Assembly: GCA_045598585.1 (NCBI GenBank)
Contig: JAZLMG010000027.1
Location: forward strand, 4,380-68,379
Reading direction: 5' to 3'
Length of the DNA stretch: 64,000 nt
DNA from: Kiritimatiellia bacterium
GTDB taxonomy: Bacteria > Verrucomicrobiota > Kiritimatiellia > RFP12 > UBA1067
Positions 36,685 to 53,072 of this stretch are shown in pieces (the stretch's first letter is position 1; each line of letters starts with the position of its first letter). The notes under the pieces are model-generated. The model worked only from the letters and a program-made list of their open reading frames with translations, made no database searches and had not been told where the DNA came from. Position numbers and translations under genes: made by a program.

Positions 36685-36706
36685 ATTTGCATATTTTGGA
36701 GGGTAT

Positions 36707-38312: not shown

Positions 38313-38348
38313 TGCCGTATCGTACGATTTCTAACAAAGGAAAATAAG

Positions 38349-41300: not shown

Positions 41301-44300
41301 ATTTCCGGCAATGGTCAGATTGCCGCCGATGAGTCGCTCTTTACGGATGGCTGCTATATCAAGGCGCTTGTCGAGGCGCAGAGCGCTCTCACGATTGCGG
41401 ATACCATTACGTTCGATCAGACAATGAAGTCTGGTTTTGTTGGAGCGCTTTACAAGACAGCAACAACGATTGAGCTTCGTGCGCAGAATAAGGAAGTTAT
41501 CTCCATTAACCTTGCCGGCGGTAAGAACACGGCGGAGACTTCCGAAGCCGCGAACTTGGTGACGGACGCCAATACCTATTATGGTCTCGCGCCGGTTCCG
41601 GGTGATAAGTGGAATAATATTTCCGGTCGTTGGCAGACGGGAAACAAGACCGTTACGCTTAATTCGGCTACCGCGTATGATGGCATGACGACGGCTCAGC
41701 GCGATACGATGAGCTTGAGTGCGACGGCGCAAAATACTTGGAATGCTGATAGTATTGCAAATCCGTTCCTTCGCGGCTATCTTGACGATAGCGGCGGCGT
41801 TGAAGTCTCGGTTACGGGTATCCCTTATTCGAAATACGATGTCATTGTTTATGTAACATCGGATGATGCACGTTATAGACTTGCGCCGATTACCGTGAAC
41901 AAAGTCAAGTATACCTATATGAACGGGGAAGCCGTCGTTGATACCGGTACGACGGATTGGGGCGTTGGACTTCAGGCGACGCCGGCTTTCGGCAAGAATG
42001 CGATGATTATTCGCAACCAGAGCCTGCAGACCTTGTCAATCAAGGCCGAGCGTCATACGAATGCGGGTCGTGGTACGCTTTGCGCGATACAGGTTATCAA
42101 CATGGGCGGCGAGGTGCTGACCCAGCGCACCTATGCTTCGACGATTACGACAGAAATGACCGCAGCGAATCTCTCGGAGCTTCAGTGCACCGGCTCGGGT
42201 TCGACGATTGTTGGCGGTGAGCTCACTCAGGTTACGCTGACGCTTGAAGGCGAAGCGACTGATCCCGAATTCGTTTTGACGATGGACGATCCGACGATCA
42301 AGACGGAATTCATCAAGATTATCGGCTCGCGTCCGATTAAGATTGCCTCTTCCGCGGCGATGGAAGGTGTTGTTTTGGATCTTTCCGAAACGTCGGGCAA
42401 TGTGACGCTTGCTCAGTCGGCTAAGAAGGTGACGGTTGGCGAACACGCGCGCCTTGTTCTTGCCGATGGTGTCTCGGTTGAGGCGCTCACGAATAACGGT
42501 GGTACGATTCGCTTCGAATCTGACCTTTCGTCCGGTACGACGCCGAACAATGGCGCGGGTACTTACGAATATAAGAATGCGAAGATTACCGGCTTCGTCA
42601 ATGGCAGCGCGAAAATCCATGTACTTGATGGTGATACGCTTAACGTGACGGCGCGTACGGCTCCTTCGCTCGAAATTGAGAATGGCGCGACGGTGACGAT
42701 CGGTGAAGCCGTTGGCAGCTTGTGGTATGGCGATGGTACGACCTTTGTTCAGAAGGGTGGCACGGTCTCATTGCCAATTAACGGTACGGGAACCTCCGGC
42801 ACAGGTAATGGCCTCTTGCTCGGCTATCAGAATGGCGGCATCACTCAGATGTCGGTTTCGGGCGGCTCGTTCACGATTGCGAATTCGTCTCTCAACTTCT
42901 ATCTCTGCTCGTCGATGACGGTTTCGGGTACCGGACACGTCAAAGCGAAGGGTGTTTATAAGAGCGGTAATGCCGCGACAGTCACGGTTTCCGATAACGG
43001 TATCTTCGAAATCGGTTCGCTCGGTTGGTCTGATATTTCTCTTAATATGAACGGCGGCACGTTTAAGGCGTTCGAGACGGCGACGATGTCAGCGGCGATG
43101 ACGATCCGTGATGCGACGACGATAGATGTCCCCGATGGCGTCACGCTTACGATTACGGGCGCGATTTCGGGTAGCTCGAACATCACGAAGACGGGTGCGG
43201 GCACGCTCATCATCACCGACTCGCTAGAAGGTTATACGGGTACGATTACGGCAACGGCCGGCCGCATCTCGGCGTGTGACTACTCGAAGGTCGCGACTTC
43301 CGATGTGGGTAAAATTCTCGTCGTGGAGTCGATTCCCGAATATGCCTCGGGCCACTTCACGGTTCCGACGGAGCTTGCGACGGTTGACTTCGATGTTCTT
43401 CGTCCGACAGGTACGATTGTGACCAAGGCGGAAGTTCTCGCCGATAAGACGGCGAAGATCTCGGGCGTTGCAACGAGCTTCGACGTGACCTATACCAATA
43501 CGATTAACTTTGCGTACAAGGCGAATTCTTCATGGTCCTCGGCTACGGATGCCAATGCAAAATCGTACAATAACACGCTCAATGACAAGTCCACGGGTCT
43601 TGAAATTCATAATCAGCCGCATATTGAGAATATTGCGTCAACGTTTTATGATGCAACCGATCAATTGTCGTTTGCGATTGTCGGTACTATGCCGGCGGGT
43701 CAGGATACGATTTTTGCGCACTTTGGACATTCTCAATCCGGTAAGTCCGGCCTTATGATCATTACCGGATCTAAGGAAGATGAGGTCGTCGTAGCGTTCA
43801 ACCATGGAAATCAAGTTACGCCGATTGCGAAGATGGTAGTTCCGAATTCGGCGACCAAACGTCATGCGTATGTCATCACCAAGGATGACAATCGCGATGC
43901 CGATACGACGACCTTTACGATTTATCTCGATGGAATAAAGTGGAAGACCCATGTTGAAACACCGAGATTTATGATTAGCGGCAATATTCAAATCGGTGGT
44001 GATGTTTGGGGCCTAATTCGAAATACCCCAAGTATCACAAATCCTGCGAATAACTATACGATTGCTACTTCTCAAAATGATGGTATCGTAAACTGTGTTC
44101 GTGGATATAACCGAATTATCTCCGCAGCGGAAATTGCTCAGTATTCCGATGAGAGCGAATTTCCTTATGTTTCGCCGAATGGAACATATACTCGTAATCC
44201 TACCGAGAATGGTAGCTGGGTTAGCGAGGGTGCGTGGACGAGCGGAGATGAGACGGTTGAGAAGCCCTCGGTTAAGGGTAATGTCGTCGTGACCGGTACG

Positions 44301-47300
44301 CACGCTGAAAACGCCGAAGCGACCGAGAAGACGATTACGGTTAATCTCACCGATGAAGTTCAGTACGAAAAGCTCACGCTCTCGGGTGATCCGATGCGCT
44401 TCGTCAACGGCGGCAACGATGCAAAGCCCGTTAAGTCGGTCTGCACGGTTGTCGGCACGACGGTTACGCTTTCGCAGAATGCGATCGACCTCAAGGCCGG
44501 CCCGACGATCATTCTCGATACGGGCAAGCTCGTCTTCGACTTCTCTTCGCTTACCGAGCAGATCGTCGCTGCCAACCCGATCGATCAGCAGGTTACAGGC
44601 GATATCGAAGAAGATGAGAACATCGGCACTGAAAGCGCGAAGATTGTCGTCGTTGGCCCGGAGAATCCCGGCCGTCTCGACATTCGTTTGAGCTACGTCA
44701 ACAACTGCTATCATGTCGTTGCGGCATTGAAGCCGGTCTATCTCAACAGCGATAATACGTTGCAGCTTGCTGACGGAACGACGGTCTCTTCGCTCTACGA
44801 GAACGAGAAGGTTTATGTCTCCTCGGTTGGCTTTGATCAAACGACCCGCTGGCGCGTCAACCTGAATAATAACACGCTCAGCGGACATACGGTCGTCATC
44901 GACTATCCGAATGGTGGTTCGAATCCGGGTATCAGCGTCCAAAGCGATATCTTGGATAATCTCAACATTGAGATTGCGGACGGTTCGATTATGTACATGC
45001 AGTCGGGCTATAAGGCGACCAATGCGACGATTACCGGCAAGGGCACCTTTAAGCTCACACAGCCGTTGACGGTTGACGGCGCCTTGATGATCTCCGCGGC
45101 AACTGTTACCGTCGAAGAATCGGGTAAGTTCAAGTTGAATACCAACGGCTCGGTTACCGTTCCTTCTGAACTTGGCGAGGGTCTTATTGAAAGCAATGTT
45201 TCGGGCATGCAGGTCAAGAAGGTGACCAACGAAGGCGAGACGACGACCTACACTTACTCGCTCTTCACGCCGGCGGCTTCTATCACGATTGACGGTGAGA
45301 CGACGTATTATTATCCGACTCTTGCCGATGCGATTTCCGATGCCTCGGCGGATGGTCTTACGGTGACGCTTGAGGGTGATGTGACGCTGGACGCCGCAGT
45401 AACGGTTCCGGTTGGGGTTACCCTCGATATCGGTTCGCATACGATCAGCGGTAGTCAGGTTAATGTCTATGGCGCTATCGCCGGTAATGGTACGATCGGC
45501 ACTTTGGTGATGGTTCGTAATTCGACGATCATTATGCCCGAGGAGGGCGTGCTCAAGGTGAGCTACATCGGTAAGTTCGATATAAAGCTCAATATCGCCA
45601 ATGCTGCGACCTCGCCGCTTACCTATCTCGAAGTTGCGAACATCTATGTTGATGGCACGAAGGCGTATGCGCCGTCATTCATCTCCTTCGTCGATGATGG
45701 AGTCGAATCCGTTGGCGTGGTCGGTCTTGACCAGCGCGAATCGGATGAGGTCTATCTCCTCCAGGCGGCAATCGCCGTCGCCGGCGTTTCGGTTTCGGTA
45801 GGGGGAGTTGACTATACCTATGGTTACATGACTGTCAATGAGGCAGTAGAGGCGGCAGTTGAGCAGGGTGGCTCCTATGCCAATGTCGAGGTCTACGACG
45901 AGGACGCGGAACTTCCTGAGGGCTTCATGGTCGTCTCGGGTCATTTGGCTCCGATTGTCGCCAAGATCGGCACGACTCCGTATCCAACGCTCCCCGGCGC
46001 GATTGCTGCGGCAGAAGAGACCGCTTCGGCGCAGACGCCTGTGACGGTGACGCTCGCGCGCAACGTGACGCTTCAGGATGCTTTGAATATTCCCGCCAAT
46101 GTGACGGTTGATGTGAACGGCTTCACGTTCACGGGCTCGGTTCAGGGTGCGGGTAAGATCAAGTTCGCCGGCTTCGCGCCGATTAAGGATGCGACGACGC
46201 TCAAGACCTCGCTTCAGGATTCCGAACATTGGACGGGTACGCTTTTGATTACTCAGCCGACTTCGGGCCAGATTGGTGCGAGTGATAACACTGTCGATAC
46301 GGCGGCCAATGGCTATCGTACGCTTCTTAATAACTACGGCAACATCAATTCGAAGATTGAGTTCGTTGATTGCACGGGTGATGGTGATATCAACTATATC
46401 GGACTTTCGCACAATGGCGATTCTGATCCTGTTGTTATCAAGCCCGAAATTGTCATTACCGGTAATGTGAAACTAAATAACGGATATTCGCATAGCAACA
46501 GCTATCCGAATTACTACACCGTTATTCGTAAGCTTTCCGGTACGGGTGCAATCAGTGCAACGCACTCCTCGCAGCTCTATTACATCGTTGACGGCAGCGA
46601 GTTCGCGGGCTCCATCTCGACGACAACGAAGAAGTTCATCTTCGGTGAGCGTGAGTCGACGGATGGTGTTCCGGCAGATGGCATTATCGCCGTTAAAATC
46701 GGTAAGTCCGTAACGATCGCGTCTGATAAGACTTGGTCTGCGACATCGATCGTTGTTAACGGTACGCTTACGAAGTCGAATGGTGCGACTTTGACCGGTA
46801 GCAATAATAACAATGGTAAGGTTGCCGGCTCCGGCGAAATCATCGTCGTCGGTTCGACCACGGCCGCCGGTATCAGCGGACATGGTATTCGCGGGCTTAC
46901 CGAAACGAATTGGACGGGTACGCTTACCATTAAGGATTGGAATGGTGCTGCTAATGCCGGTTCGGCAGATTTCGGCAATCTCGGCAATGCCAATTCGACT
47001 GTTCGCTTCGATGGCTATAACGGTTATCTCTATACGGGAACCTATAACCAGATTAAGGCGTATGACATTGCCGCGGGCGGCTTGACCTTGATTGGTCAGT
47101 ACTCGAACGGTAATCCGATCTTCCAGGGCAACTTGACCGGATCGGGTCCGATTACGGTGAATATGACGGGTGGACGTTTGATTAAGTTCGTCGGCGATCA
47201 CTCCGCATATACGGGAACGATTACTGTTGCGAATACTGCGTGCGTTGCGTTGGTTGATTCGGCTGACGCGCCTGTCCAGTACGAAGCCGGCAAGGTCATC

Positions 47301-47840
47301 TACGGTTCCGGATCCTCTCAGAAGATTCCTGAGATTCCTGAAGATGCGACTGTGACGATTGCACCCGGATCAAACGCGACGGTGACGTTCCCCGAAGAAG
47401 CGACTGCCGAGGAGAAGGCGGCAATTGCTGACCAGATCGTCGTCAAGTACGGCGAGACTGTTCTCAATCCTGCCGAATGCACGAAGTATGTCGAAGTCAC
47501 GATCAATCAGGAATCCGGTAAGGTCGAGCTGACGACGACGGAGGCCGCCAAGCCGGCTGCGACGGAGATCGCGATGTCGACGCCGACGGAAGGCGAAGGT
47601 GAGGAAGCGACTGACAAGGTTCAGTTCACGATCACCAACCCGATCCCGGGTCTCTTCTACGAAATCGTCTCCGGCGATAGCTTCGATGAGCACGGTGCTC
47701 TCGTTGTTGACGAAGACGCTGAGAAGGGTACCTCTCAAGCGACGACTTCGGCCGAAGCGAAGACGGTCTCGATCCCGATGACCTTCACCGGCGATAAGAA
47801 GGTGAAGTACTACAAGGTCAGCGTCAAGGCAACGAAGTAA
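38349..47840 (+). CDS. giant secreted surface protein (3,163 aa): LamG/ConA-like lectin domains + PATR-like/beta-helix repeats + small conserved C-terminal tail
   Basis: ATG 38349 follows AAGGAAAATAAG, with signal peptide MMKKIMKTMLSFAALMLCGGAWA|AA. LamG-like segments lie at about 38420-39140, 40525-41150 (LHLDASSL…WNDLSGKN…LIFN) and 43594-44150. PATR-like motifs are TKTGAGTLIITDSLEGYTGTITATAGRI (~43180-43270) and LTGSGPITVNMTGGRLIKFVGDHSAYTGTITVAN (~47130-47235). An internal duplication covers ~39315-39435 and ~40240-40360 (DGTVTVEMHGVD / DGVLTVEMHVQD). I recognise no beta-barrel, LPXTG or PEP-CTERM. Confidence 0.85.
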   Translation: MMKKIMKTMLSFAALMLCGGAWAAAIYKPIAVWDGNFADLTKGGVTLANVGESANPIVTSNGESYIKIADDATKGVFLNWDDLYNVTLANGGFSGREVTVIVAYSDMPTPGTNAKDAIFTLTSQATTTSNASSDWLGVMANTSGQTSAMVGSNSTWTHTSENPKGVFDFANNEQGIRYLAFSYKSSSTEVLPTGCQLFQRADDGTWTKVYGSWGLKTSTADIRGCSIGGPRNVTYAGALQGLKIHKIAVFNEILTDANLAGYRFPSDVNVLTHNKALTSDYVATGWYVSSVDELTAYNYTGVMAGGYVTDGTPAYGYFPTKHSDGTVTVEMHGVDNEAKGVLVEMKVEDGEVKIKGIKAAYWSAKNQIGNRLWQAANNSQITTGNGTFASGATGNGYGILSLTATPSYHVLNASYKNFNQAGYGSTYTYKFNLRATPSYADGTKVLVKRVGIACEGANDDLPAKVRINGIASTSRIGPEYESTFGSASSTIVYYNFDNGVELTVGTDADEFVYLNADDTVSTSIRHRLVEKIARSYSNLSVITIYNNGTEVTNYSPICDVVAERIAINPDNDATFTGTLSHSTWSVIGKVAEGDTINDVALKYGITAQLGGSSINRGTPLDAVDCYSQVHTDGVLTVEMHVQDGDNKKNVLVGFKVEGGLLMAKWLKGSYKGTTVNDRQTTYAEGGTISVISGFTSYDNYEVTKLVVTKADLLNTSATKPSVIATSNNALRLHLDASSLANFTLSNGEVTQWNDLSGKNYNATPASAKVGNADVTRNGYIEVVNGVPAFQMGPTGSGVDLAFNRFTGIKTVFWVMDIKQEQAAFFLGDVGYQQYDFHRGANGVYASQNKPFKNATCVRCDGVQVNPASDVAPTGLHVYSAQLATAANANRLSQDRSENGCNGGRAISELLIFNTELTNDQVAEVNKYLMKKWTGYKERTATISADTNWSEIEWSGDEDTDNIVIAFEDNAKLTFDSSVQCNSMTISGNGQIAADESLFTDGCYIKALVEAQSALTIADTITFDQTMKSGFVGALYKTATTIELRAQNKEVISINLAGGKNTAETSEAANLVTDANTYYGLAPVPGDKWNNISGRWQTGNKTVTLNSATAYDGMTTAQRDTMSLSATAQNTWNADSIANPFLRGYLDDSGGVEVSVTGIPYSKYDVIVYVTSDDARYRLAPITVNKVKYTYMNGEAVVDTGTTDWGVGLQATPAFGKNAMIIRNQSLQTLSIKAERHTNAGRGTLCAIQVINMGGEVLTQRTYASTITTEMTAANLSELQCTGSGSTIVGGELTQVTLTLEGEATDPEFVLTMDDPTIKTEFIKIIGSRPIKIASSAAMEGVVLDLSETSGNVTLAQSAKKVTVGEHARLVLADGVSVEALTNNGGTIRFESDLSSGTTPNNGAGTYEYKNAKITGFVNGSAKIHVLDGDTLNVTARTAPSLEIENGATVTIGEAVGSLWYGDGTTFVQKGGTVSLPINGTGTSGTGNGLLLGYQNGGITQMSVSGGSFTIANSSLNFYLCSSMTVSGTGHVKAKGVYKSGNAATVTVSDNGIFEIGSLGWSDISLNMNGGTFKAFETATMSAAMTIRDATTIDVPDGVTLTITGAISGSSNITKTGAGTLIITDSLEGYTGTITATAGRISACDYSKVATSDVGKILVVESIPEYASGHFTVPTELATVDFDVLRPTGTIVTKAEVLADKTAKISGVATSFDVTYTNTINFAYKANSSWSSATDANAKSYNNTLNDKSTGLEIHNQPHIENIASTFYDATDQLSFAIVGTMPAGQDTIFAHFGHSQSGKSGLMIITGSKEDEVVVAFNHGNQVTPIAKMVVPNSATKRHAYVITKDDNRDADTTTFTIYLDGIKWKTHVETPRFMISGNIQIGGDVWGLIRNTPSITNPANNYTIATSQNDGIVNCVRGYNRIISAAEIAQYSDESEFPYVSPNGTYTRNPTENGSWVSEGAWTSGDETVEKPSVKGNVVVTGTHAENAEATEKTITVNLTDEVQYEKLTLSGDPMRFVNGGNDAKPVKSVCTVVGTTVTLSQNAIDLKAGPTIILDTGKLVFDFSSLTEQIVAANPIDQQVTGDIEEDENIGTESAKIVVVGPENPGRLDIRLSYVNNCYHVVAALKPVYLNSDNTLQLADGTTVSSLYENEKVYVSSVGFDQTTRWRVNLNNNTLSGHTVVIDYPNGGSNPGISVQSDILDNLNIEIADGSIMYMQSGYKATNATITGKGTFKLTQPLTVDGALMISAATVTVEESGKFKLNTNGSVTVPSELGEGLIESNVSGMQVKKVTNEGETTTYTYSLFTPAASITIDGETTYYYPTLADAISDASADGLTVTLEGDVTLDAAVTVPVGVTLDIGSHTISGSQVNVYGAIAGNGTIGTLVMVRNSTIIMPEEGVLKVSYIGKFDIKLNIANAATSPLTYLEVANIYVDGTKAYAPSFISFVDDGVESVGVVGLDQRESDEVYLLQAAIAVAGVSVSVGGVDYTYGYMTVNEAVEAAVEQGGSYANVEVYDEDAELPEGFMVVSGHLAPIVAKIGTTPYPTLPGAIAAAEETASAQTPVTVTLARNVTLQDALNIPANVTVDVNGFTFTGSVQGAGKIKFAGFAPIKDATTLKTSLQDSEHWTGTLLITQPTSGQIGASDNTVDTAANGYRTLLNNYGNINSKIEFVDCTGDGDINYIGLSHNGDSDPVVIKPEIVITGNVKLNNGYSHSNSYPNYYTVIRKLSGTGAISATHSSQLYYIVDGSEFAGSISTTTKKFIFGERESTDGVPADGIIAVKIGKSVTIASDKTWSATSIVVNGTLTKSNGATLTGSNNNNGKVAGSGEIIVVGSTTAAGISGHGIRGLTETNWTGTLTIKDWNGAANAGSADFGNLGNANSTVRFDGYNGYLYTGTYNQIKAYDIAAGGLTLIGQYSNGNPIFQGNLTGSGPITVNMTGGRLIKFVGDHSAYTGTITVANTACVALVDSADAPVQYEAGKVIYGSGSSQKIPEIPEDATVTIAPGSNATVTFPEEATAEEKAAIADQIVVKYGETVLNPAECTKYVEVTINQESGKVELTTTEAAKPAATEIAMSTPTEGEGEEATDKVQFTITNPIPGLFYEIVSGDSFDEHGALVVDEDAEKGTSQATTSAEAKTVSIPMTFTGDKKVKYYKVSVKATK

Positions 47841-47883
47841 GCGAACTATTCTATCAGATATATTAGTTCGATTTACCAACAGC

Positions 47884-47915
47884 AAACGGCTTCGAAAGGA
47901 GCCGTTTGTTATTTT
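47884..47915 (+). terminator. rho-independent terminator of the giant gene
   Basis: AAACGGCT-tcgaaagg-AGCCGTTT followed by GTTATTTT. Confidence 0.8.
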
Positions 47916-47922
47916 AAGGGGC

Positions 47923-47952
47923 TTGATTTGAGAGAGAGGATTTTGATATAAT
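47923..47952 (+). promoter_or_regulatory. cassette promoter 1 (GGGGCTTGAT…TGATATAAT)
   Basis: TTGATT, 18-nt spacer, TGATATAAT. ATG 47961 is 8 nt after the -10. Confidence 0.6.
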
Positions 47953-47960
47953 AGCGTAGC

Positions 47961-48893
47961 ATGAATCCTTTAAGAAATAGCAATATTAACTACTGCCAAG
48001 GGTGGTTCTTCGTTACTATCCAAGTGGCGATGAACAAATCGGTTTTTGGTGTTGTTTCCGATAAGAGATTAATTCTTAATGAGTTAGGAAATGCGGTTAA
48101 AGAGAATCTAAGCCGACTTGGAAATATATTCCCGGAATTATATGTTGATACCTTTGTAATTATGCCGAACCATCTTCACGCTATTTTCAAGATAGATAGT
48201 AAAAGCGAGTCGCGGCATCTGTCGTATTTTATAGGACGATTCAAGTCTTTCACAGCGAATTTGTATCATAGAATGGTAAGAGAAGGTGTTTGTATTGATA
48301 TTGGGGCTTCGCTTTGGCAGACTAATTATTACGATAATTTGATAACCGAACATAAGGAGCTGGAAGCCATCAGAGAATATATAAGGAGAAATCCCGAGAG
48401 ATGGGAGGATGACCGTTTTGGCCCGGTTACGACATATTCAAAGGGAAACCTGAAGCTGTTAAATGAGTCTTTGGTGGCATTTGTCGCGTCAGATACTAAA
48501 GATAATTGGCAAGAGGATGTGCCGCATTTAAGAGAGGTGAGAGAGGTTTCAGGACGGAGCCCTATTTCAAAAGAAGCTCCCTTAATATCCACTTTCTCTA
48601 GTTTTGAGGAAAAAGGAGCTTTGTTAAAAAGAATAAATGATAGGTTGCCTTTTATATGGGTAGATCCGGCAGGAATTAAGCCGAATCTTCGTCCTGATAT
48701 TGAATCGGCGATTCTTGAAGGATGGGGATTGGTGATTTCTCCGGTTGAAAGCGGGACGGGACTCAATAAACAACGGGCGATCTGGTGTAATAGATGGATT
48801 ATTAAGGTAGCTAAACGAATTTATGTTGGAACGATAAAGAAGGGTGGTACTCTTGATACATTGTTGACGCACGGAGGCGTCAACCTACGATAA
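47961..48893 (+). CDS. HUH Y1 transposase (IS200-like/REP-associated RAYT, COG1943-type) fused to a DprA-like (SLOG-fold) C-terminal domain
   Basis: 310 aa. The N-terminal ~160 aa carry the HUH motif (MPNHLHAIF), LWQTNYYDNLI and the catalytic-Tyr motif (EYIRRNPERW). The C-terminal ~150 aa resemble DprA at motif level: GNLKLLNESLVAFVAS (compare GNxxLL…vaIVGSR) and GLVISPVESGTGLNKQRAIWCNRWIIKVAKRIYVGTIKKGGTLDT (compare liSE.p.g…F..RNRiI.gls…vvEa..kSGsl.T). Confidence 0.6.
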   Translation: MNPLRNSNINYCQGWFFVTIQVAMNKSVFGVVSDKRLILNELGNAVKENLSRLGNIFPELYVDTFVIMPNHLHAIFKIDSKSESRHLSYFIGRFKSFTANLYHRMVREGVCIDIGASLWQTNYYDNLITEHKELEAIREYIRRNPERWEDDRFGPVTTYSKGNLKLLNESLVAFVASDTKDNWQEDVPHLREVREVSGRSPISKEAPLISTFSSFEEKGALLKRINDRLPFIWVDPAGIKPNLRPDIESAILEGWGLVISPVESGTGLNKQRAIWCNRWIIKVAKRIYVGTIKKGGTLDTLLTHGGVNLR

Positions 48894-48940
48894 CATATCG
48901 TGGTGCTCGGCCTCTGTGCCGAATTATGTAATCTTCCGCG

Positions 48941-48995
48941 CGAGGGTGTGAATAGAGGCGAGGAGTGATCTTCGCCTCTTTCTTCGTCTTTCCCG
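48941..48995 (+). repeat. 55-nt hairpin element, copy A (full length)
   Basis: CGAGGGTGTGAATAGAGGCGAGGAGTGATCTTCGCCTCTTTCTTCGTCTTTCCCG, inserted after TCCGCG. The flanks match the empty site at 52227-52263. Confidence 0.85.
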
Positions 48996-49015
48996 GCACT
49001 TTGGCGGAATGGGGC

Positions 49016-49045
49016 TTGATTTTCCCAAGGGGAATATGATATAAT
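49016..49045 (+). promoter_or_regulatory. cassette promoter 2
   Basis: GGGGCTTGATT, 18-nt spacer, TGATATAAT. Confidence 0.6.
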
Positions 49046-49147
49046 ATAAGCGATCTCCCGAAAGGTGGGATCATCTGGATGCGGAGGAAAGTCTTCGCGT
49101 TGGTGACGGGAAGTAATTCTCGTCGCCTTCTCATTTTAGCGGCAGGC

Positions 49148-49837
49148 ATGGCAGAGAAAATATTGAGTATATTTGTGGATGAATCGGGGCGCTTTCAGTA
49201 TCCCGATTCCGATTCTCGTTTCTACATTTTGGGTCTTGTATTACACGATCAATCTGACGCAATAGATAAATACGTTGCAGATCTTGAGCGGTCTGAAGAT
49301 GAGGTTGGACTTGAAGGGCATTGTTTTCATGCCGGACCTCTTATCCGCAAGGAGAAGGGGTATGAAATCATGAGTCGTAAATGGCGTGGAAGGATATTCT
49401 CTCGCATGATGGCATTTGCTCAGAAGGTTCCTTTTCGCTATCATTGTCTGAGCGTTGATAAGAAACTTATTGATGATGTTGGCCAGATTGTTGAACGCTT
49501 AGATCGACAACTGGTTGAGTTCATTTCATTGCATCGAATCGACTTGTTCAATATCGAGACTATCAAGATATACTACGATTGTGGTCAGTCTCCGGTTACA
49601 AATCTTCTTCATAAGACATTCGTTGAAGAACTCGGGAAACGGGTGGAGTTTGCGCAAGGAGTACAACCGTCAAGCTATCGGCTTTTCCAGTTGGCAGATC
49701 TCGTATGTACAGTTCATCTAATCGAGCGGCGTCTGGAAGAAGGGGATAGGATGACGATGTCAGAGGTTCGGTTCTTTGGCGGTCCTCGCGACTTCAAACG
49801 AAATGTTTTGAAAAAGCTCAAGGCCAAGGAAGTTTAA
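49148..49837 (+). CDS. DUF3800-family protein
   Basis: N-terminal ILSIFVDESG and C-terminal YRLFQLADLVC are DUF3800 hallmarks. An alternative upstream ATG at 49079 is conserved in the truncated copy. Confidence 0.7.
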   Translation: MAEKILSIFVDESGRFQYPDSDSRFYILGLVLHDQSDAIDKYVADLERSEDEVGLEGHCFHAGPLIRKEKGYEIMSRKWRGRIFSRMMAFAQKVPFRYHCLSVDKKLIDDVGQIVERLDRQLVEFISLHRIDLFNIETIKIYYDCGQSPVTNLLHKTFVEELGKRVEFAQGVQPSSYRLFQLADLVCTVHLIERRLEEGDRMTMSEVRFFGGPRDFKRNVLKKLKAKEV

Positions 49838-49889
49838 TCGAAGTAATCCTGTAAATCCTGTAAATCCTGTCTAAAACAGGACAAGCTAA

Positions 49890-49931
49890 AGAGGCGAGGC
49901 GTGAGTCTCGCCTCTTTCTTCGTCTCCCGCG
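49890..49931 (+). repeat. hairpin element, copy B (hairpin + 3' part; different 5' flank)
   Basis: AGAGGCGAG-gcgtgagt-CTCGCCTCT TTCTTCGTCTCCCGCG, preceded by the TCCTGT-ctaaa-ACAGGA hairpin (49865-49881) and AAATCCTGT tandem 9-mers. Confidence 0.8.
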
Positions 49932-49951
49932 GCGCATTGGCGGGAGGGGGC

Positions 49952-49981
49952 TTGACGAGGTTATCATAATTATGATATAAT
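49952..49981 (+). promoter_or_regulatory. cassette promoter 3
   Basis: GGGGCTTGACG, 18-nt spacer, TGATATAAT. The SD AAGGAGA precedes ATG 50006. Confidence 0.6.
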
Positions 49982-50005
49982 TCTTATCGGTTTAAGGAGA
50001 AGATT

Positions 50006-50302
50006 ATGCCGCCTATGATTAAAGACTCGGATATTCGTCCGATTTCCGACTTGCGCAATAAGTTCGCCGAAATTGCGGATTATGTGCAAGATGGTAATGC
50101 CGTTATCTTTACGCGTAATGGCTATGGTTGCATGGTGACGATCAGTTACGATTCGTTCAAGCGTCTAGGAGATCCTGTGCTTGCTGAATTGCGAGAGGCG
50201 GATCGAAAGTGCGAGCAGGACCCTCGTCATTATACGAAAGAAGAGTCTTTAGCCATTTTGAAGGAGCGCGCTAATGCTCGGCGAAACCGCGTACAGGCTT
50301 GA
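50006..50302 (+). CDS. Phd/YefM-family type II antitoxin
   Basis: 98 aa. IRPISDLRNKFAEIADYV…VIFTRNGYGCMVTISYDSFKRL is typical of Phd/YefM. Confidence 0.8.
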   Translation: MPPMIKDSDIRPISDLRNKFAEIADYVQDGNAVIFTRNGYGCMVTISYDSFKRLGDPVLAELREADRKCEQDPRHYTKEESLAILKERANARRNRVQA

Positions 50303-50621
50303 TATTCGTCCGACATTTATCGACGAGCTTGATCGCGCGGTAGAGTATATCGAGCGCAAATTCAAAAATCCTATTGCGGCAGACAATCTTATTAACGATG
50401 TCTACGCGGCGATAGACGAACGACTTTTTGCGCCGGAATCATACGAACCTTGCTATCGTCCACCGGATGTAACCAAGCCGTATTATCGTATTGATGTGCG
50501 AAACTATTCGATATATTACGTGGTGATTGGTTCGGTAATGGAAGTCCGGTGGTTCAGATATTCAAAGAGCGTTCAGCCTCTTTCCGGATATCCGATCTAT
50601 GAGTCCGGAAGTGTCTGGTAA
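50274..50621 (+). CDS. RelE/ParE-family type II toxin
   Basis: 115 aa overlapping the antitoxin, with a ParE-like core (YRLDIRPTFIDELDRAVEYI…YYRIDVRNYSIYYVVIGSVMEVRWFRY). An atypical C-terminal tail runs into the relic at 50605-50667. Confidence 0.72.
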   Translation: MLGETAYRLDIRPTFIDELDRAVEYIERKFKNPIAADNLINDVYAAIDERLFAPESYEPCYRPPDVTKPYYRIDVRNYSIYYVVIGSVMEVRWFRYSKSVQPLSGYPIYESGSVW

Positions 50622-50667
50622 CGCGAAGGTTAAGTACTTCCGCGTCCGCGTCAAGGCGACCAAGTAA
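50605..50667 (+). pseudogene. relic of a giant-protein 3' end (…PEVSGNAKVKYFRVRVKATK*)
   Basis: Aligns with the giant C-terminus TFTGDKKVKYYKVSVKATK* at both protein and DNA level (GTCAAGGCGACCAAGTAA vs GTCAAGGCAACGAAGTAA). It is out of frame with the parE end. Confidence 0.65.
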
Positions 50668-50709
50668 TCTTGGAAATCCTGTCAATCCTGTCTAAAACAG
50701 GCAAGTTAA

Positions 50710-50752
50710 AGAGGCGAGGAGTGATCTTCGCCTCTTTCTTCGTCTTCCCGCG
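50710..50752 (+). repeat. hairpin element, copy C (hairpin + 3' part)
   Basis: AGAGGCGAGGAGTGATCTTCGCCTCT TTCTTCGTCTTCCCGCG, preceded by the CCTGT-ctaaa-ACAGG hairpin (50687-50701). Confidence 0.8.
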
Positions 50753-50772
50753 GCGCATTGGCGGGAGGGGGC

Positions 50773-50802
50773 TTGATTTTCCCAAGGGTAATATGATATA
50801 AT
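50773..50802 (+). promoter_or_regulatory. cassette promoter 4 (near-duplicate of promoter 2)
   Basis: GGGGCTTGATTTTCCCAAGGGTAATATGATATAAT vs GGGGCTTGATTTTCCCAAGGGGAATATGATATAAT at 49011-49045. Confidence 0.6.
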
Positions 50803-50859
50803 ATAGGCGATCTTTCGAATGAAGGATCATCTGGATGCGGGGAAAGTGCTCCGCCTTAA

Positions 50860-51069
50860 GTGACGGGTTCGCCTGTCACTTTCGCATTTAATAGAATGAC
50901 GAGAAGGTCGCTTAGTGTATTTGCAGATTTAATCTGTACAATTCGCTTTATAGAGGAAGAACTTAACGTTGGCGATGGGATGACATCTTCCGAAGATAAG
51001 TTCTTTGGCGGTCCGAAGGCATTCCGTCATAATGTATTGCGTTATGTTAAGTCCAAGGAAATTCGTTAA
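50860..51069 (+). pseudogene. truncated DUF3800 paralog (promoter, leader and last ~50 codons only)
   Basis: LSVFADLICTIRFIEEELNVGDGMTSSEDKFFGGPKAFRHNVLRYVKSKE aligns with YRLFQLADLVCTVHLIERRLEEGDRMTMSEVRFFGGPRDFKRNVLKKLKAKE of the intact copy. The N-terminal DESG part is absent. Confidence 0.75.
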
Positions 51070-51080
51070 GGGCTTTGTTT

Positions 51081-51167
51081 TCAGCTAAGGCGGACTCGAT
51101 CCCGAAGACCTTCGGCGAAGGTAAGAAGGTCAAGTTCTTCAAGGTCAGCGTCAAGGCGACCCGATGA
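51081..51167 (+). pseudogene. relic of a giant-protein 3' end (SAKADSIPKTFGEGKKVKFFKVSVKATR*)
   Basis: Aligns with SAEAKTVSIPMTFTGDKKVKYYKVSVKATK* (47748-47840), with strong DNA identity (TCGATCCCGAaGACCTTC…AAGAAGGT…AAGGTCAGCGTCAAGGC). Confidence 0.75.
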
Positions 51168-51238
51168 TGCGAGCATCCCCGTGGCAGGCGAAGTAATCCG
51201 CGGCAGAAATGCCCAAGATGTAACAAGAACAACAACAG

Positions 51239-51268
51239 ACGGCTTCGCAAGGAGCCGTTTGTTATTTT
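51239..51268 (+). terminator. second copy of the giant-gene terminator
   Basis: ACGGCTtcgcaaggAGCCGTTTGTTATTTT vs ACGGCTtcgaaaggAGCCGTTTGTTATTTT at 47886-47915. Confidence 0.75.
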
Positions 51269-51338
51269 CCATGTTTGTGCTTGGCACATCTGTGGAGAAT
51301 GAAAATCGTATCTTCCGCTATACTTTGGCGTAAGGGGC

Positions 51339-51368
51339 TTGACAAAGGTGTATCCTAAATGATACAAT
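51339..51368 (+). promoter_or_regulatory. cassette promoter 5
   Basis: GGGGCTTGACA, 18-nt spacer, TGATACAAT. ATG 51375 is 6 nt after the -10, so the transcript is probably leaderless. Confidence 0.6.
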
Positions 51369-51374
51369 ATTGAC

Positions 51375-51662
51375 ATGACAATTCGAGAGACAGAGCTATA
51401 TAAGAAGTGGTTTGCAAAGTTGAAAGATACGGTAGCTAAGGCGCGTATCTTGGTGCGACTTCGTAGAATGGCGCTTGGTAATTTCGGTGAGTATAAGGAT
51501 TTGGGTGATAATGTTTCGGAGTTGAAGTTTCATTTCGGTCCTGGATATCGGATTTACTACACAGAGAGAGATGGCGAGATTGTAATATTATTGGCGGGAG
51601 GCGACAAGTCTTCGCAGACTAAAGATATTGCTAAGGCAAAGGAGCTTGCCGCAAACTTGTAA
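51375..51662 (+). CDS. addiction-module killer protein (HigB-like, RelE/ParE superfamily)
   Basis: 95 aa. GNFGEYKDLGDNVSELKFHFGPGYRIYYTERDGEIVILLAGGDKSSQTKDIAKAK is the canonical killer-protein signature. Confidence 0.85.
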   Translation: MTIRETELYKKWFAKLKDTVAKARILVRLRRMALGNFGEYKDLGDNVSELKFHFGPGYRIYYTERDGEIVILLAGGDKSSQTKDIAKAKELAANL

Positions 51663-51672
51663 GGAGGGTGTT

Positions 51673-51957
51673 ATGAAAACTAAGACTACAATTTGGAAGA
51701 TTGAGAATCACCTTAAGACGAAAGAAGAGCGTGAGGCTTATCTTAACGCGGCGTTTGAGGATGGTGATGCGTCTGTTATTGCTGCGGCGCTCGGTGATAT
51801 TGCTCGAGTTGAAGGTATGAGTAAGGTTGCGAAGAAGTCCGGGCTTGGACGGGAAAGCCTTTACAAAGCTTTGTCGGCTGAAGGCAATCCTGCTCTTGGG
51901 ACGATTATTAAAGTTCTTAAAGCGTTTGATTTTAATCTTCGAGCGGCATGCTTTTAA
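51673..51957 (+). CDS. addiction-module antidote protein (HigA-like HTH)
   Basis: ATG 51673 follows AAGGAGGG. YLNAAFEDGD…GMSKVAKKSGLGRESLYKALSAEGNPALGTIIKVLKA. Confidence 0.85.
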   Translation: MKTKTTIWKIENHLKTKEEREAYLNAAFEDGDASVIAAALGDIARVEGMSKVAKKSGLGRESLYKALSAEGNPALGTIIKVLKAFDFNLRAACF

Positions 51958-51977
51958 CATAGCAAAGCTTCTCCGCG

Positions 51978-52033
51978 CGAGGGGGTAAATTGAGGCGAGG
52001 TGTGAGTCTCTCCTCTTTCTTCGTCTTTCCGCG
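51978..52033 (+). repeat. hairpin element, copy D (full length, degenerate stem)
   Basis: CGAGGGGGTAAATTGAGGCGAGGTGTGAGTCTCTCCTCTTTCTTCGTCTTTCCGCG, flanked by TCCGCG on the left. Confidence 0.8.
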
Positions 52034-52073
52034 GCGATTTTGGTTTGTTTATGCAGTTATTGTTTCGGAATAA

Positions 52074-52113
52074 TTCAGTATTGTTTCAGTACGGATTCAG
52101 TAACGATTCAGTA
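52074..52113. repeat. 4 x 11-bp tandem repeat (TTCAGTA core)
   Basis: TTCAGTA at 52074, 52085, 52096 and 52107, with an exact 11-bp period. Confidence 0.75.
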
Positions 52114-52258
52114 CTGTTGCGGTTTGTTTTTAAAAAGAGGGGACAGTCCCCAATTCGTGGACATTCGAAAGGCGATGCAAGCATTCGTGTTCCCATTCGT
52201 GCCTCGCGCCGGTAGGCGCCAACATCTAATCTTCCGCGGCACTTTGGCGGAATGGGGC

Positions 52259-52288
52259 TTGACAGGATGATATCATATATGATACAAT
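52259..52288 (+). promoter_or_regulatory. cassette promoter 6
   Basis: GGGGCTTGACA, 18-nt spacer, TGATACAAT. ATG 52296 is 7 nt after the -10. Confidence 0.6.
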
Positions 52289-52295
52289 ACATGCC

Positions 52296-52634
52296 ATGAA
52301 TTACGTGACTAAGAAGTATGAACGAGAGAATGGGGCAATTCCCTTCGACGAATGGATCTCGTCGCTTTCGCCGGTATTTCGTGCTCGAGTCTATGCTTAT
52401 CTCACGAGAGTTGAGCTTGGCAATTGGGGTAATGTCAAGTCAATCGAGGGCGAGGATTCGAAAGATCTATTTGAGTTGCGTATGTTCTTTGGCCCCGGAT
52501 ATCGCGCTTATTTCGGCAAAGATGGTGACAAATTGATATTGCTACTTTGCGGAGGCGACAAGAAGACGCAAAAGCGTGACATCAAAGAGGCGAAGATGTT
52601 GTGGAATGAATATCGAAAGAGGAAAGGAGAATGA
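52296..52634 (+). CDS. addiction-module killer protein (HigB-like), paralog 2
   Basis: 112 aa. GNWGNVKSIEGEDSKDLFELRMFFGPGYRAYFGKDGDKLILLLCGGDKKTQKRDIKEAK. Confidence 0.85.
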   Translation: MNYVTKKYERENGAIPFDEWISSLSPVFRARVYAYLTRVELGNWGNVKSIEGEDSKDLFELRMFFGPGYRAYFGKDGDKLILLLCGGDKKTQKRDIKEAKMLWNEYRKRKGE

Positions 52635-52635
52635 T

Positions 52636-52953
52636 ATGGCTTTGACGGTTGATTATCGTGAAGGAGTGTTAAAAGACATCCGGGAAAATCCTGAGGTGGC
52701 ACGCGAGTATTATCGCGAAGCGGTTAAGGCAACGATTAACGGAGAGACGGATGTCGCAAATTCGATGTTTCGCGACCTTGTAAATGCAGGTATCGGCTTT
52801 CAGCGACTTGCGGCCGAAACGGGAATCAGTGCGCCGAATCTTCATCGCGCACTATCTCCACGCGGCAATCCTACTATGAAGACATTTAGTAAGATAGCAG
52901 CTGCGGTCAGTTTGTATTTGGGTTTCCCCACCCCGATGGGAATATTCGGTTAA
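52636..52953 (+). CDS. addiction-module antidote protein (HTH), paralog 2
   Basis: ATG 52636 lies 2 nt after the toxin stop. FQRLAAETGISAPNLHRALSPRGNPTMKTFSKIAAA. Confidence 0.8.
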   Translation: MALTVDYREGVLKDIRENPEVAREYYREAVKATINGETDVANSMFRDLVNAGIGFQRLAAETGISAPNLHRALSPRGNPTMKTFSKIAAAVSLYLGFPTPMGIFG

Positions 52954-52980
52954 ACCAAGAACAAACATCCACCATCCGCG

Positions 52981-53035
52981 CGAGGGGGTAAATAGAGGCG
53001 AGGCGTGAGTCTCGCCTCTTTCTTCGTCTCCCGCG
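52981..53035 (+). repeat. 55-nt hairpin element, copy F (full length, best consensus)
   Basis: CGAGGGGGTAAATAGAGGCGAGGCGTGAGTCTCGCCTCTTTCTTCGTCTCCCGCG, flanked by TCCGCG on the left. It has a 9-bp stem and an 8-nt loop. Confidence 0.85.
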
Positions 53036-53037
53036 GT

Positions 53038-53066
53038 TTGACAAAGCTACTCGTTTTTAGTATACT
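53038..53066 (+). promoter_or_regulatory. promoter of the glycoside-hydrolase-like gene
   Basis: TTGACA, 17-nt spacer, TATACT. ATG 53073 is 6 nt after the -10. Confidence 0.55.
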
Positions 53067-53072
53067 ATTAGA

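What the first reader, a model, noticed from the sequence alone, without database searches (positions are those of the whole stretch)
47748..51268. Three copies of the giant protein's extreme 3' end (plus its terminator) punctuate the downstream array
- **The three copies.**
  - Giant gene end: SAEAKTVSIPMTFTGDKKVKYYKVSVKATK* followed by a terminator (47884-47915).
  - Relic 2 (50605-50667): PEVSGNAKVKYFRVRVKATK*.
  - Relic 3 (51081-51167): SAKADSIPKTFGEGKKVKFFKVSVKATR*. It is followed at 51239-51268 by an almost identical terminator (ACGGCTTCGcAAGGAGCCGTTTGTTATTTT).
- **Further vestiges.** The shorter string CGAAGTAATCC recurs after the DUF3800 stop (about 49839-49849) and at 51189-51199.
- **Interpretation.** Direct repeats of a target gene's 3' end are what serial site-specific insertions at one att-like site leave behind. 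Alternatively they could be relics of paralogous giant genes whose bodies were deleted.
- **Sorting-signal possibility.** The tail is conserved at protein level (K-V-K-aromatic-aromatic-basic-V-x-V-K-A-T-basic-stop). This may also reflect a functional C-terminal sorting or secretion signal.
Basis: seen in the sequence. Interest (0 to 1): 0.7.

Follow-up and report, generated by a model that had tools for sequence, protein, structure and literature searches.

The report
Giant-gene tail relics join cassette array
The repeated 3' ends are real: short dead copies of the tail, 3' UTR and terminator of a family of giant secreted Kiritimatiellia proteins form the joints between small toxin-antitoxin and other gene cassettes stacked behind the giant gene. 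The same pattern recurs in related genomes.

Summary
Observation confirmed. The giant ORF (38235-47840) ends ...KVKYYKVSVKATK*. Two non-coding tail relics lie at 50623-50667 and 51081-51167, two 2-codon vestiges at 49839-49849 and 51189-51199, and a second copy of the terminator at 51230-51268.

The tail is the last beta-strand of a ~100-aa C-terminal domain. This domain ends at least 17 other large proteins (1457-3177 aa), all with a ...CGGAWA-type signal peptide. The named ones are from Kiritimatiellia.

The relics are not local duplicates. Relic 2 with its UTR and hairpin matches the native 3' end of a different paralogue. The DUF3800/relic 3 junction recurs in another assembly at another locus, so relics travel with their cassettes.

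Region 47916-53036 holds six same-strand cassettes, each with a strong promoter, gene(s), a giant-3'-end-derived module and a terminator. A related contig (L018) has the same design with three relics.

All nine known relic junctions keep 68 codons or fewer and abut the upstream stop codon. This rules out random deletion of paralogous giants.

Best model: giant-gene 3' ends act as shared landing pads and recombination modules. The enzymology is unresolved. A RayT-like HUH gene follows the tail or a relic at six places in five contigs. No integrase is present.

The parts
38349..47840 (+). Giant secreted protein gene. The ORF starts at 38235. The likely start is the ATG at 38349, giving MMKKIMKTMLSFAALMLCGGAWAA, the family's signal peptide.
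   Evidence: No Pfam or NCBIfam hit. The N-terminus matches the family signal peptides.
47508..47837 (+). Family-wide C-terminal domain of about 100 aa. The tail KVKYYKVSVKATK (47799-47837) is its last beta-strand.
   Evidence: phmmer finds 25 hits, 17 of them large proteins matched at their extreme C-terminus. Alignment A4. AF2 model with pLDDT 81.6, six strands, the last at residues 96-103.
47841..47915 (+). Native 3' module of the giant gene: UTR hairpin (GAACTA..TAGTTC) followed by intrinsic terminator T1 (47877-47915).
   Evidence: fold -10.7 kcal/mol, z -4.3. Conserved behind homologous tails in L001 and L018.
47918..48893 (+). Cassette 1: promoter GGGGCTTGAT-N17-GATATAAT (47918-47952) and a RayT-like Y1/HUH gene with an extra C-terminal domain (47961-48893).
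   Evidence: Pfam Y1_Tnp 35.7 bits. NCBIfam REP_Tyr_transpos 54.5 bits, below the cut-off of 80. Promoter. An 82%-identical gene sits behind a different giant in L006.
48935..48989 (+). Junction module: TCCGCGCGAGGG, then terminator hairpin T2 (48954-48979), then TTCTTCGTCT.
49011..49837 (+). Cassette 2: promoter (49011-49045), leader hairpin (49102-49127), and DUF3800 gene (49151-49837).
49839..49934 (+). Tail vestige (CGAAGTAA, the last 2 codons plus stop), then type-2 3' UTR (AATCCTG repeats, CTGTCTAAAACAGG hairpin), then T2 (49890-49915) and CCCGCGG.
   Evidence: 90.5% identical over 74 nt to the native 3' flank of the MAG giant in L002.
49947..50621 (+). Cassette 3: promoter (49947-49981), Phd antitoxin (50006-50302), ParE toxin (50274-50621).
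50623..50755 (+). Relic 2: the last 14 codons of a YFRVRV-subtype tail (50623-50667), then type-2 UTR, T2 (50710-50735) and CCCGCGG.
   Evidence: 80% identical over 120 nt to the L002 native end, E 1e-25. Alignment A2. The frame is open for only 42 codons.
50768..51069 (+). Cassette 4: promoter (50768-50802), with a leader 79% identical to that of cassette 2, and an internally deleted DUF3800 gene remnant ending at 51069.
   Evidence: (D3, D12).
51081..51268 (+). Relic 3: the last 28 codons of a tail (51081-51167), a 20-nt odd insert, a second vestige GCGAAGTAA (51187-51195), type-3 UTR, and a T1 copy (51230-51268).
   Evidence: The same DUF3800-stop/relic junction occurs in L017. The same odd insert occurs in L018 relic B.
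51334..51957 (+). Cassette 5: promoter (51334-51368), HigB-like Gp49 toxin (51375-51662), HigA-like antidote (51673-51957).
   Evidence: The orthologous cassette, with the same promoter and preceded by a tail relic and T1, is in L018.
51972..52036 (+). Junction module: TCCGCGCGAGGGGG, a degenerate T2 (51991-52016), and TTCCGCGGCG.
52254..52953 (+). Cassette 6: promoter (52254-52288), HigB-like gene (52296-52634), HigA-like gene (52636-52953).
   Evidence: The same promoter and the same gene start lie downstream of another giant in MAG locus L004.
52975..53036 (+). Last junction module: TCCGCGCGAGGGGG, T2 (52994-53019), CCCGCGG. This is the right edge of the array and abuts the promoter of the 646-aa gene (53038-53066; CDS 53073-55013).
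   Evidence: The same T2 to TTTGACAAAGC junction occurs in L015 and L017, with different content upstream.

Best explanation
**What is shown**
- The giant protein belongs to a lineage-specific family of large secreted proteins. The named members are from gut-associated Kiritimatiellia.
- Family members share a signal peptide (..LCGGAWA) and a ~100-aa C-terminal beta-sandwich domain. The repeated 'tail' is its last strand.
- In this lineage, the 3' end of these genes has become the repeated joint of small-gene cassette arrays. The joint comprises the last ~30 codons or fewer, the 3' UTR hairpin and the intrinsic terminator.
- Each cassette has a near-consensus promoter, then one gene or a toxin-antitoxin pair, then a truncated non-coding tail relic or only its UTR, then a terminator (T1 or T2).
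- The two downstream copies in the window are such relics. They derive from other paralogue subtypes, and they move together with their cassettes between loci and genomes.

**What is inferred**
- Arrays grow and shuffle by recombination between these shared 3'-end modules. The routes would be Campbell-type insertion of excised circles, unequal crossing-over and gene conversion.
- Any giant-gene 3' end or existing relic can therefore serve as a landing pad.
- This keeps the giant gene's own tail intact and places a relic behind each cassette.
- The relics themselves probably have no coding function. They persist because they carry the terminator and the homology.
For: **The tail is a family domain**
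- 17 large proteins end with it, and all carry the same type of signal peptide.
- Named members are from Kiritimatiellia.

**The relics come from elsewhere**
- Relic 2 plus its UTR plus T2 is collinear with the native end of a 3177-aa GDSL/PATR giant in MAG locus L002.

**Relics travel with cassettes**
- The DUF3800-stop/relic junction in the window (51060-51095) is the same junction as in L017, at a different locus.
- The block relic, T1, promoter, HigBA is shared between the window and L018.

**The design is general**
- L018 reads: giant, T1, RayT-like gene, relic, T1, HigBA, relic, T1, antitoxin/YafQ, relic, T1.
- L004 has a giant followed, after a tRNA gene, by the promoter and HigB of cassette 6.

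**The modules are mosaic**
- Tail type, UTR type and terminator type occur in different combinations.
- The odd 20-nt insert of relic 3 is followed by a type-3 UTR in the window but by a type-1 UTR in L018 (alignment A5).
- This is what recombination inside the modules would produce.

**The array is variable**
- In L015, the T2 next to the 646-aa gene is preceded by a tail relic instead of cassette 6. The flanking protein is 99% identical.
- Assemblies break at these repeats.

**Two unrelated terminator hairpins play the same role**
- T1 and T2 differ in sequence yet both serve as joints. This fits homology-driven rather than sequence-specific recombination.

**The elements look functional**
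- Promoters and terminators score well and are confined to the array within the window.
Against: - No recombination intermediate or crossover has been observed directly.
- Plain homologous recombination does not explain how each gene/relic junction first arose.
- It does not explain why relics start 1-16 nt after the upstream stop codon.
- It does not explain why four independent relic starts cluster at 24-29 codons from the end.
- It does not explain why a RayT-like HUH gene follows the tail or a relic at six places in five independent contigs.
- Cassettes 1, 5 and 6 end in TCCGCGCGAGGGGG plus T2 with no tail remnant, so tail homology is not universal.
- Only fragments of related genomes could be examined.
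Confidence: 0.55

Rival explanations
1. An enzyme-driven, integron-like cassette system. The terminator hairpins (T1, T2) are structure-specific recombination sites, cut and rejoined by the RayT-like Y1/HUH protein or by an unseen recombinase acting in trans. Each cassette is a gene plus its own hairpin module, as in attC cassettes. The tail relics are passengers inside those modules.
For: - A RayT-like gene is the first gene after the giant's terminator, or after a relic, in the window, L006, L003, L019 and twice in L018.
- Three RayT-like subtypes, only about 30% identical to each other, occupy this position.
- The right edge of every module is sharp, immediately after the terminator, while the left edge varies. 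This is the same asymmetry seen for attC.
- Two different hairpins play the same role, as a structure-reading enzyme would allow.
- In junction J6, CCGCG motifs flank T2 and pair into an extended hairpin.
- Toxin-antitoxin cassettes with their own promoters are typical of chromosomal integrons (own knowledge).
Against: - More distant homologues of the RayT-like protein (67-68% identity) sit in a conserved housekeeping neighbourhood (DUF1425, LpoB..., rpsB, tsf). They look domesticated rather than cassette-linked.
- The protein scores below the NCBIfam RayT cut-off.
- No conserved cleavage motif was found at the junctions.
- No integrase was found among the ORFs scanned between 28.6 and 63.4 kb.
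- The mosaic modules are explained more simply by homologous exchange.
Confidence: 0.25
2. Classical serial integration of genomic islets at one att site in this giant gene's 3' end. Each incoming element carried a replacement 3' end and displaced the previous end downstream.
For: - The giant's tail plus T1 and relic 3 plus T1 bracket 3.3 kb of accessory genes as direct repeats.
- The giant's own tail remains intact.
Against: - There is no integrase or excisionase in or near the array.
- The array continues past relic 3 with two more cassettes that use the same modules.
- Relic 2 and the 49839 vestige carry another paralogue's UTR and terminator.
- Identical gene/relic junctions occur at other loci.
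- The units are 0.8-1 kb single-gene cassettes, not islands.
Confidence: 0.1
3. Relics of tandem paralogous giant genes whose bodies were deleted, or a simple local tandem duplication.
For: The relics do resemble different paralogue subtypes.
Against: - All nine relic junctions known (window, L015, L017, L018, L019) keep only 2-68 codons of genes that are 1500-3200 codons long.
- Seven of the eight junctions with a readable upstream edge begin 1-16 nt after a small gene's stop codon. In L019 the relic starts ~100 nt after the upstream stop.
- Random deletions would mostly leave long fragments.
- A local duplication is excluded by the 17-21% divergence, the different UTR and terminator types, and the unrelated genes between the copies.
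Confidence: 0.05

Closest known systems
Chromosomal integron cassette arrays and CALINs (clusters of attC sites lacking an integrase)
   Same: - A same-strand array of short cassettes.
- Conserved hairpin-containing joints alternate with variable genes.
- Rich in type II toxin-antitoxin pairs that carry their own promoters.
- Content varies between strains.
   Different: - No IntI and no attC core (RYYYAAC / GTTRRRY).
- The joints are copies of a protein-coding gene's 3' end plus an intrinsic terminator.
- Every cassette has a near-consensus promoter.
- The array is anchored to the 3' end of a giant-gene family, not to attI.
Orphan modules downstream of rhs and cdiA genes (displaced C-terminal tips)
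   Same: - Fragments of a large polymorphic gene's end accumulate downstream of the intact gene, interleaved with small genes.
- They are thought to arise by recombination in conserved sequence.
   Different: - Here the repeated piece is the conserved extreme C-terminus, not a variable toxin tip preceded by a conserved motif.
- The small genes are autonomous toxin-antitoxin, DUF3800 and HUH genes with their own promoters, not cognate immunity genes.
attL/attR partial duplications of a target gene's 3' end made by integrative elements (tRNA, tmRNA or protein genes)
   Same: - An intact gene end sits upstream and truncated copies of the same end sit downstream, bracketing accessory DNA.
   Different: - No integrase.
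- The units are single-gene cassettes.
- The relics come from several paralogues and are portable parts of the cassettes.
REPtrons and RAYTs (REP-associated tyrosine transposases with their REP/BIME hairpins)
   Same: - A Y1/HUH gene of the RayT type lies next to extragenic hairpins at gene 3' ends.
   Different: - The hairpins are not high-copy and dispersed. They occur only in the array within 64 kb.
- They do not flank the gene as inverted copies.
- The protein has an extra C-terminal domain and scores below the RayT equivalog threshold.

Membership tests
Integron / CALIN | A tyrosine-recombinase integrase (IntI) adjacent to the array. A CALIN lacks this. | tested here: not met
   None of the 36 ORFs scanned between 28.6 and 63.4 kb has a Phage_integrase-type hit. 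ORFs in 1-28 kb were not scanned.
Integron / CALIN | attC sites: imperfect palindromes with R''/L''/L'/R' boxes and a GTTRRRY core at cassette boundaries. | tested here: not met
   The junctions were read and aligned. The boundaries are CCGCGG-type or terminator T-runs, with no GTTRRRY / RYYYAAC pair. IntegronFinder's attC model was not run.
Integron / CALIN | A same-orientation array of short cassettes with conserved joints and variable genes. | tested here: met
   Six cassettes on the + strand. Five T2 and six promoter modules occur only in the array.
REPtron (RayT plus REPs) | A Y1 HUH transposase of the RayT clade. | tested here: inconclusive
   Pfam Y1_Tnp is above its cut-off at 35.7 bits. 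NCBIfam REP_Tyr_transpos scores 54.5 bits against a cut-off of 80. An HUH motif (NHLHAIF) and a Tyr (NYYDN) are present in the translation. JGI names some homologues RayT.
REPtron (RayT plus REPs) | REP hairpins in high copy number (more than 100 per genome, abstract of PMC2817692), dispersed across the genome and flanking the rayT gene in inverted orientation. | tested here: not met
   T1 (2 copies) and T2 (5 copies) occur only inside the array in 64 kb, all on one strand. Whole-genome copy number could not be measured.
Integrative element with att duplication | An integrase encoded at one end of the element, with direct repeats limited to the two element ends. | tested here: not met
   No integrase. 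There are five tail-derived pieces inside one 5-kb array.
Rhs / CDI orphan arrays | Orphans consist of a variable toxin tip preceded by a piece of the conserved core (PxxxxDPxGL or VENN) and followed by an immunity gene. | tested here: not met
   The giant has no Rhs, CdiA or toxin-domain hit. The relics are the conserved last strand only. The neighbours are Phd/ParE, HigBA and DUF3800.
Diversity-generating retroelement (VR/TR pair) | A template repeat that differs from the gene's 3' variable region at adenines, with a reverse transcriptase nearby. | tested here: not met
   Mismatches between 47756-47833 and 51083-51160 are of all kinds (D6). There is no RT domain in the neighbours.
Known C-terminal sorting domains (T9SS CTD, PEP-CTERM, autotransporter barrel) | A match to the curated profiles or folds. 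| tested here: not met
   The whole giant has no Pfam or NCBIfam hit. The AF2 model has no significant PDB match, best E 6e-3. A sorting role itself was not testable.

The most novel reading that the evidence does not exclude
The 3' ends of this giant-gene family are the attachment sites of a previously undescribed cassette-capture system with no integrase. The RayT-like HUH enzymes that so regularly follow these genes would cut single-stranded terminator hairpins and move promoter-gene-terminator cassettes between giant-gene ends. This would be a functional analogue of an integron built on intrinsic terminators.
Probability: 0.2. Interest if true: 0.85.

Novelty: new variant of a known kind. 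Interest (0 to 1): 0.62.

Why it matters
- It would add a way of building accessory-gene arrays. The recombination module would be the conserved 3' end and terminator of a paralogous family of giant genes, not a dedicated att or attC site.
- It defines a new lineage-specific family of giant surface or secreted proteins in gut Kiritimatiellia, with a signature signal peptide and a C-terminal domain. This domain is a candidate sorting signal in a phylum whose secretion biology is almost unknown.
- It gives domesticated-looking RayT-type HUH enzymes a concrete, testable genomic partner.
- Toxin-antitoxin arrays placed right behind very long genes may also stabilise those genes against deletion. 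This last point is speculation.

Tried and rejected
- **Exact-sequence look-ups** of three window proteins found nothing, so the source genome is not in the protein collection.
- **Tail-pattern scan of JGI metagenomes** gave one hit (L005) with no long ORF and an unrelated context. I judged it a chance match.
- **T2 pattern in viral contigs:** no hit.
- **DGR reading:** rejected. Mismatches are not adenine-specific and there is no RT.
- **Integron reading:** no IntI and no attC core.
- **REPtron reading:** the hairpins are not dispersed.
- **Rhs/CDI orphan reading:** no toxin tips.
- **PADLOC:** no defence-system hit for any cassette protein, apart from a marginal NsnC match for HigB at E 8e-4.
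- **Rfam:** nothing in 47000-53500 at E up to 0.1.
- **Foldseek against PDB:** no significant match for the C-terminal domain.
- **CCGCGGCR as a specific core site:** the octamer is common genome-wide, with 32 copies in the window, so it cannot define a site by itself.
- **Orthology of the giants that precede the same RayT-like gene (window and L006):** rejected. They are 31% identical and not collinear. The RayT-like unit therefore sits behind different giants.
- **Literature searches** found nothing on this architecture.

Full report
**1.

The 3201-codon ORF at 38235-47840 ends ...SAEAKTVSIPMTFTGDKKVKYYKVSVKATK*. It is followed by a UTR hairpin and an intrinsic terminator, T1, at 47877-47915.

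The repeat finder confirms the copies:
- 47798-47840, 50625-50667 and 51125-51167 form one family, at 81% and 79% identity to the giant's end.
- 47756-47833 and 51083-51160 are 83% identical over 78 nt.
- 47877-47915 and 51230-51268 are 92% identical.

A six-frame motif scan finds the tail only at these three places in the window. The two relics cap open frames of only 42 and 38 codons, so they are not genes.

Only 50623-50667 of relic 2 is tail-derived. The residues before that are the ParE 3' end read in another frame.

**2. What the tail is**

The giant has no Pfam or NCBIfam match. An exhaustive phmmer search with its last 110 residues found 25 proteins among 1.84 billion representatives:
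- 17 are large (1457-3177 aa) and carry the match at their very C-terminus.
- All 17 start with the same kind of signal peptide (M.K...LAFAALMLCGGAWA) and end KVK[YF][YF][KR][VI].VKAT[KR]*.
- Two tail subtypes exist: ..KTVSIPMTFTG..KVKYYKVSVKATK and ..TTTSIDMPDAKVKYFRVRVKATK.

A DNA scan of one genome per species found the tail in only three contigs. All three belong to one Kiritimatiellia MAG from horse faeces, and two of those proteins are in NCBI under that taxon.

In the one close homologue found by word-indexed search, the last ~100 residues are far better conserved than the body.

An AlphaFold model built from 18 sequences (pLDDT 81.6) is a six-stranded beta-sandwich, and the tail is its last strand. 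Foldseek finds no significant PDB relative. The core of the domain also matches internal tandem repeats of two other giants.

The 'conserved at protein level' impression is therefore explained. The tail is the end of a family-wide C-terminal domain. A sorting or anchoring role is plausible but untested.

**3. What lies around the relics**

Between the giant's terminator and the next chromosomal gene (646 aa, 53073-55013) there are six same-strand cassettes. Each begins with GGGGCTTGAY-N17-GATAYAAT. That pattern has six matches in the window, all in the array, against 0.01 expected by chance. All six score 10-11 of 12 as sigma-70 promoters with an extended -10.

The genes are:

| Cassette | Content | Coordinates |
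|---|---|---|
| 1 | RayT-like Y1/HUH protein with an extra C-terminal domain | 47961-48893 |
| 2 | DUF3800 | 49151-49837 |
| 3 | Phd/ParE | 50006-50621 |
| 4 | Internally deleted DUF3800 | to 51069 |
| 5 | HigBA-like pair | 51375-51957 |
| 6 | HigBA-like pair | 52296-52953 |

Five cassettes end in a second terminator hairpin, T2 (AGAGGCGAGGnGTGAnnCTCGCCTCT followed by TTCTTCGTCT). T2 has five matches, all within the array. Cassette 4 ends in relic 3 plus a T1 copy.

No integrase, reverse transcriptase or known defence system was found among the ORFs scanned. There is no Rfam family in the region.

**4. Where the relics come from**

In MAG locus L002, an intact giant (3177 aa, GDSL lipase plus PATR) ends ..DAKVKYFRVRVKATK*. 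It is followed by TCCTATCAATCCTGTCTAAAACAG..CAAGCTAA and then T2.
- Window relic 2 with its downstream sequence is collinear with this native end (80% over 120 nt, E 1e-25).
- So is the stretch after the DUF3800 stop, starting at CGAAGTAATCC (90.5% over 74 nt).
- T2 is therefore the native terminator of another paralogue. Relic 2 and the first vestige are truncated copies of that paralogue's 3' end.

The second vestige (51187-51205) and the UTR after it match the sequence that follows a tail relic in L019. The stop context matches that of the giant in L006.

Relic 3 carries an odd 20-nt insert that is also present in a relic of L018. There it is followed by a different UTR type.

**5. Relics travel with cassettes, and the design is general**

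*L017.* A DUF3800 gene ends ..KSKEIR* and is followed, after the same spacer (GGyTTTGTTTTC), by a 29-codon tail relic. This is the same gene/relic junction as window cassette 4 and relic 3. In L017 it is followed by a type-2 UTR and T2, and it sits at another locus.

*L018.* The layout shows the whole architecture again:
1. a 1954-aa giant with a variant tail, then T1
2. a RayT-like gene, then a ~25-codon relic and T1
3. the orthologue of window cassette 5, then an 8-codon relic, a UTR hairpin and T1
4. an antitoxin/YafQ pair, then a 27-codon relic, a UTR hairpin and T1
5. a truncated RayT-like gene, then a tRNA gene

*L004.* Another giant is followed by a tRNA gene and then by the promoter and HigB of window cassette 6.

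*L019.* A 68-codon relic precedes a RayT-like gene.

*L015.* This comes from a strain whose 646-aa protein is 99% identical. A partly deleted tail relic abuts the last T2 where the window has cassette 6, so the content varies within the species. Assemblies of relatives break at these repeats.

**6. Discriminating the explanations**

The retained tail lengths at the nine known relic junctions are 2, 8, 14, ~25, 27, 28, 29 and 68 codons, plus the L015 relic, which is cut by the contig edge. They start 1-16 nt after the stop codon of the small upstream gene (~100 nt in L019; the L015 start is cut by the contig edge).

- **Random deletion of giant bodies.** This would mostly leave long fragments from genes of 1500-3200 codons, so this alternative is rejected.
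- **Simple tandem duplication.** This is excluded by the divergence, the different UTR and terminator types, and the unrelated genes in between.
- **Classical island integration.** This fails because there is no integrase, because the array continues beyond relic 3, and because the units are single cassettes.

What fits best is that the 3' end of the giant family acts as a shared module. Recombination between its copies inserts, excises and shuffles cassettes, while the resident giant gene keeps a complete tail.

Support for this model:
- The module parts occur in mosaic combinations.
- Two unrelated terminators do the same job.
- The C-terminal region is much better conserved than the gene bodies among paralogues.

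Not explained by plain homologous exchange:
- how each gene/relic junction was first made
- the tight abutment of relics to stop codons
- the clustering of four independent relic starts at 24-29 codons from the end
- the presence of a RayT-like HUH gene, of three subtypes only about 30% identical to each other, directly behind a tail or relic at six places in five contigs

These points keep an enzyme-driven, integron-like mechanism alive as the main rival.

Against that rival:
- More distant homologues of the RayT-like protein sit in a conserved housekeeping neighbourhood.
- The giants in front of the same RayT-like gene in the window and in L006 are not orthologues. The RayT-like unit may therefore simply be another shuffled cassette.

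**7. Comparison with known systems**

- The array works like a chromosomal integron or CALIN: conserved hairpin joints, variable genes, toxin-antitoxin cassettes, strain variability. It fails the membership tests for IntI and attC.
- It resembles Rhs/CDI orphan arrays and att-site duplications in leaving gene-end fragments downstream. However, the fragments are the conserved last strand, they come from several paralogues, and they are portable.
- It is not a canonical REPtron, because the hairpins are confined to the array.
- I found no description of this architecture in the searchable literature.

**8. Verdict**

- The feature is real, recurrent and lineage-specific.
Serial insertion at one att site is not the mechanism, and neither is deletion of paralogous giants.
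- Novelty: a new variant of known kinds of cassette array.
- Interest: 0.62.

Noticed in passing
L003 4440-4560 and 5540-5680 (minus strand); L019 725-830: The L003-type RayT-like genes are flanked on both sides by direct copies of an ~18-nt repeat (GCCCGAGCATCGCGATCAG and variants). There are 3-4 copies upstream and 3 inside or after the 3' end. These may be the cognate repeats of that HUH enzyme.
   Followed up: no
window 49102-49127 and 50858-50885; L017 about 3293-3330: The 5' leader of the DUF3800 cassettes holds a terminator-like hairpin between the promoter and the start codon. Its stem differs in sequence among the three copies but stays paired. This could be an attenuator or regulatory leader.
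   Followed up: no
window 53037-53115; L017 3112-3196 and 4221-4300: The 646-aa gene and a GH95 gene in L017 share the same promoter and the same first 12 codons (MKYALMFVSIAF). L017 also carries a truncated 5' relic of this start, joined to a cassette at the microhomology CGCGGCGC. 5' ends of genes are therefore also left as relics in these regions.
   Followed up: partly
window 52040-52220: A 180-nt spacer between cassettes 5 and 6 has four copies of (G)ATTCAGTA and a GGGGACAGTCCCC hairpin. It has no counterpart in the other junctions, and its origin is unknown.
   Followed up: no
window 36653-37975: The DUF4143/AAA_14 ATPase gene just upstream of the giant gene matches the PADLOC candidate defence family PDC-S01 (E 9e-57).
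   Followed up: no
L007 10001-10987; L009-L014: Two-domain RayT-like proteins 67-68% identical to the window's sit in a conserved block (DUF1425, LpoB, several unknowns, RayT-like, 175 aa, 480 aa, rpsB, tsf) in several assemblies. This suggests a domesticated, vertically inherited HUH gene in related Kiritimatiellia.
   Followed up: partly
L002 1-70 (minus strand): The MAG contig ends in a tandem 22-nt repeat (CAAAGTAAGCGGCTACTCGCTC, at least 3 copies), about 250 nt downstream of the giant's terminator.
   Followed up: no
L006 4373-4414; L018 7270-7310; L017 3010-3043: Other giants end in related but distinct tails (EKVKYYQIEYTITK*, DKVKFIKIEYVIQ*, SAFYKLELKLK*). Two of these are followed by T1-type terminators. 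The C-terminal family is probably broader than the 17 proteins found.
   Followed up: no
L004 7193-7268: A tRNA-Ile gene with the unusual anticodon AAT lies 8 nt after the stop codon of a giant gene, between that gene and a HigB cassette.
   Followed up: no
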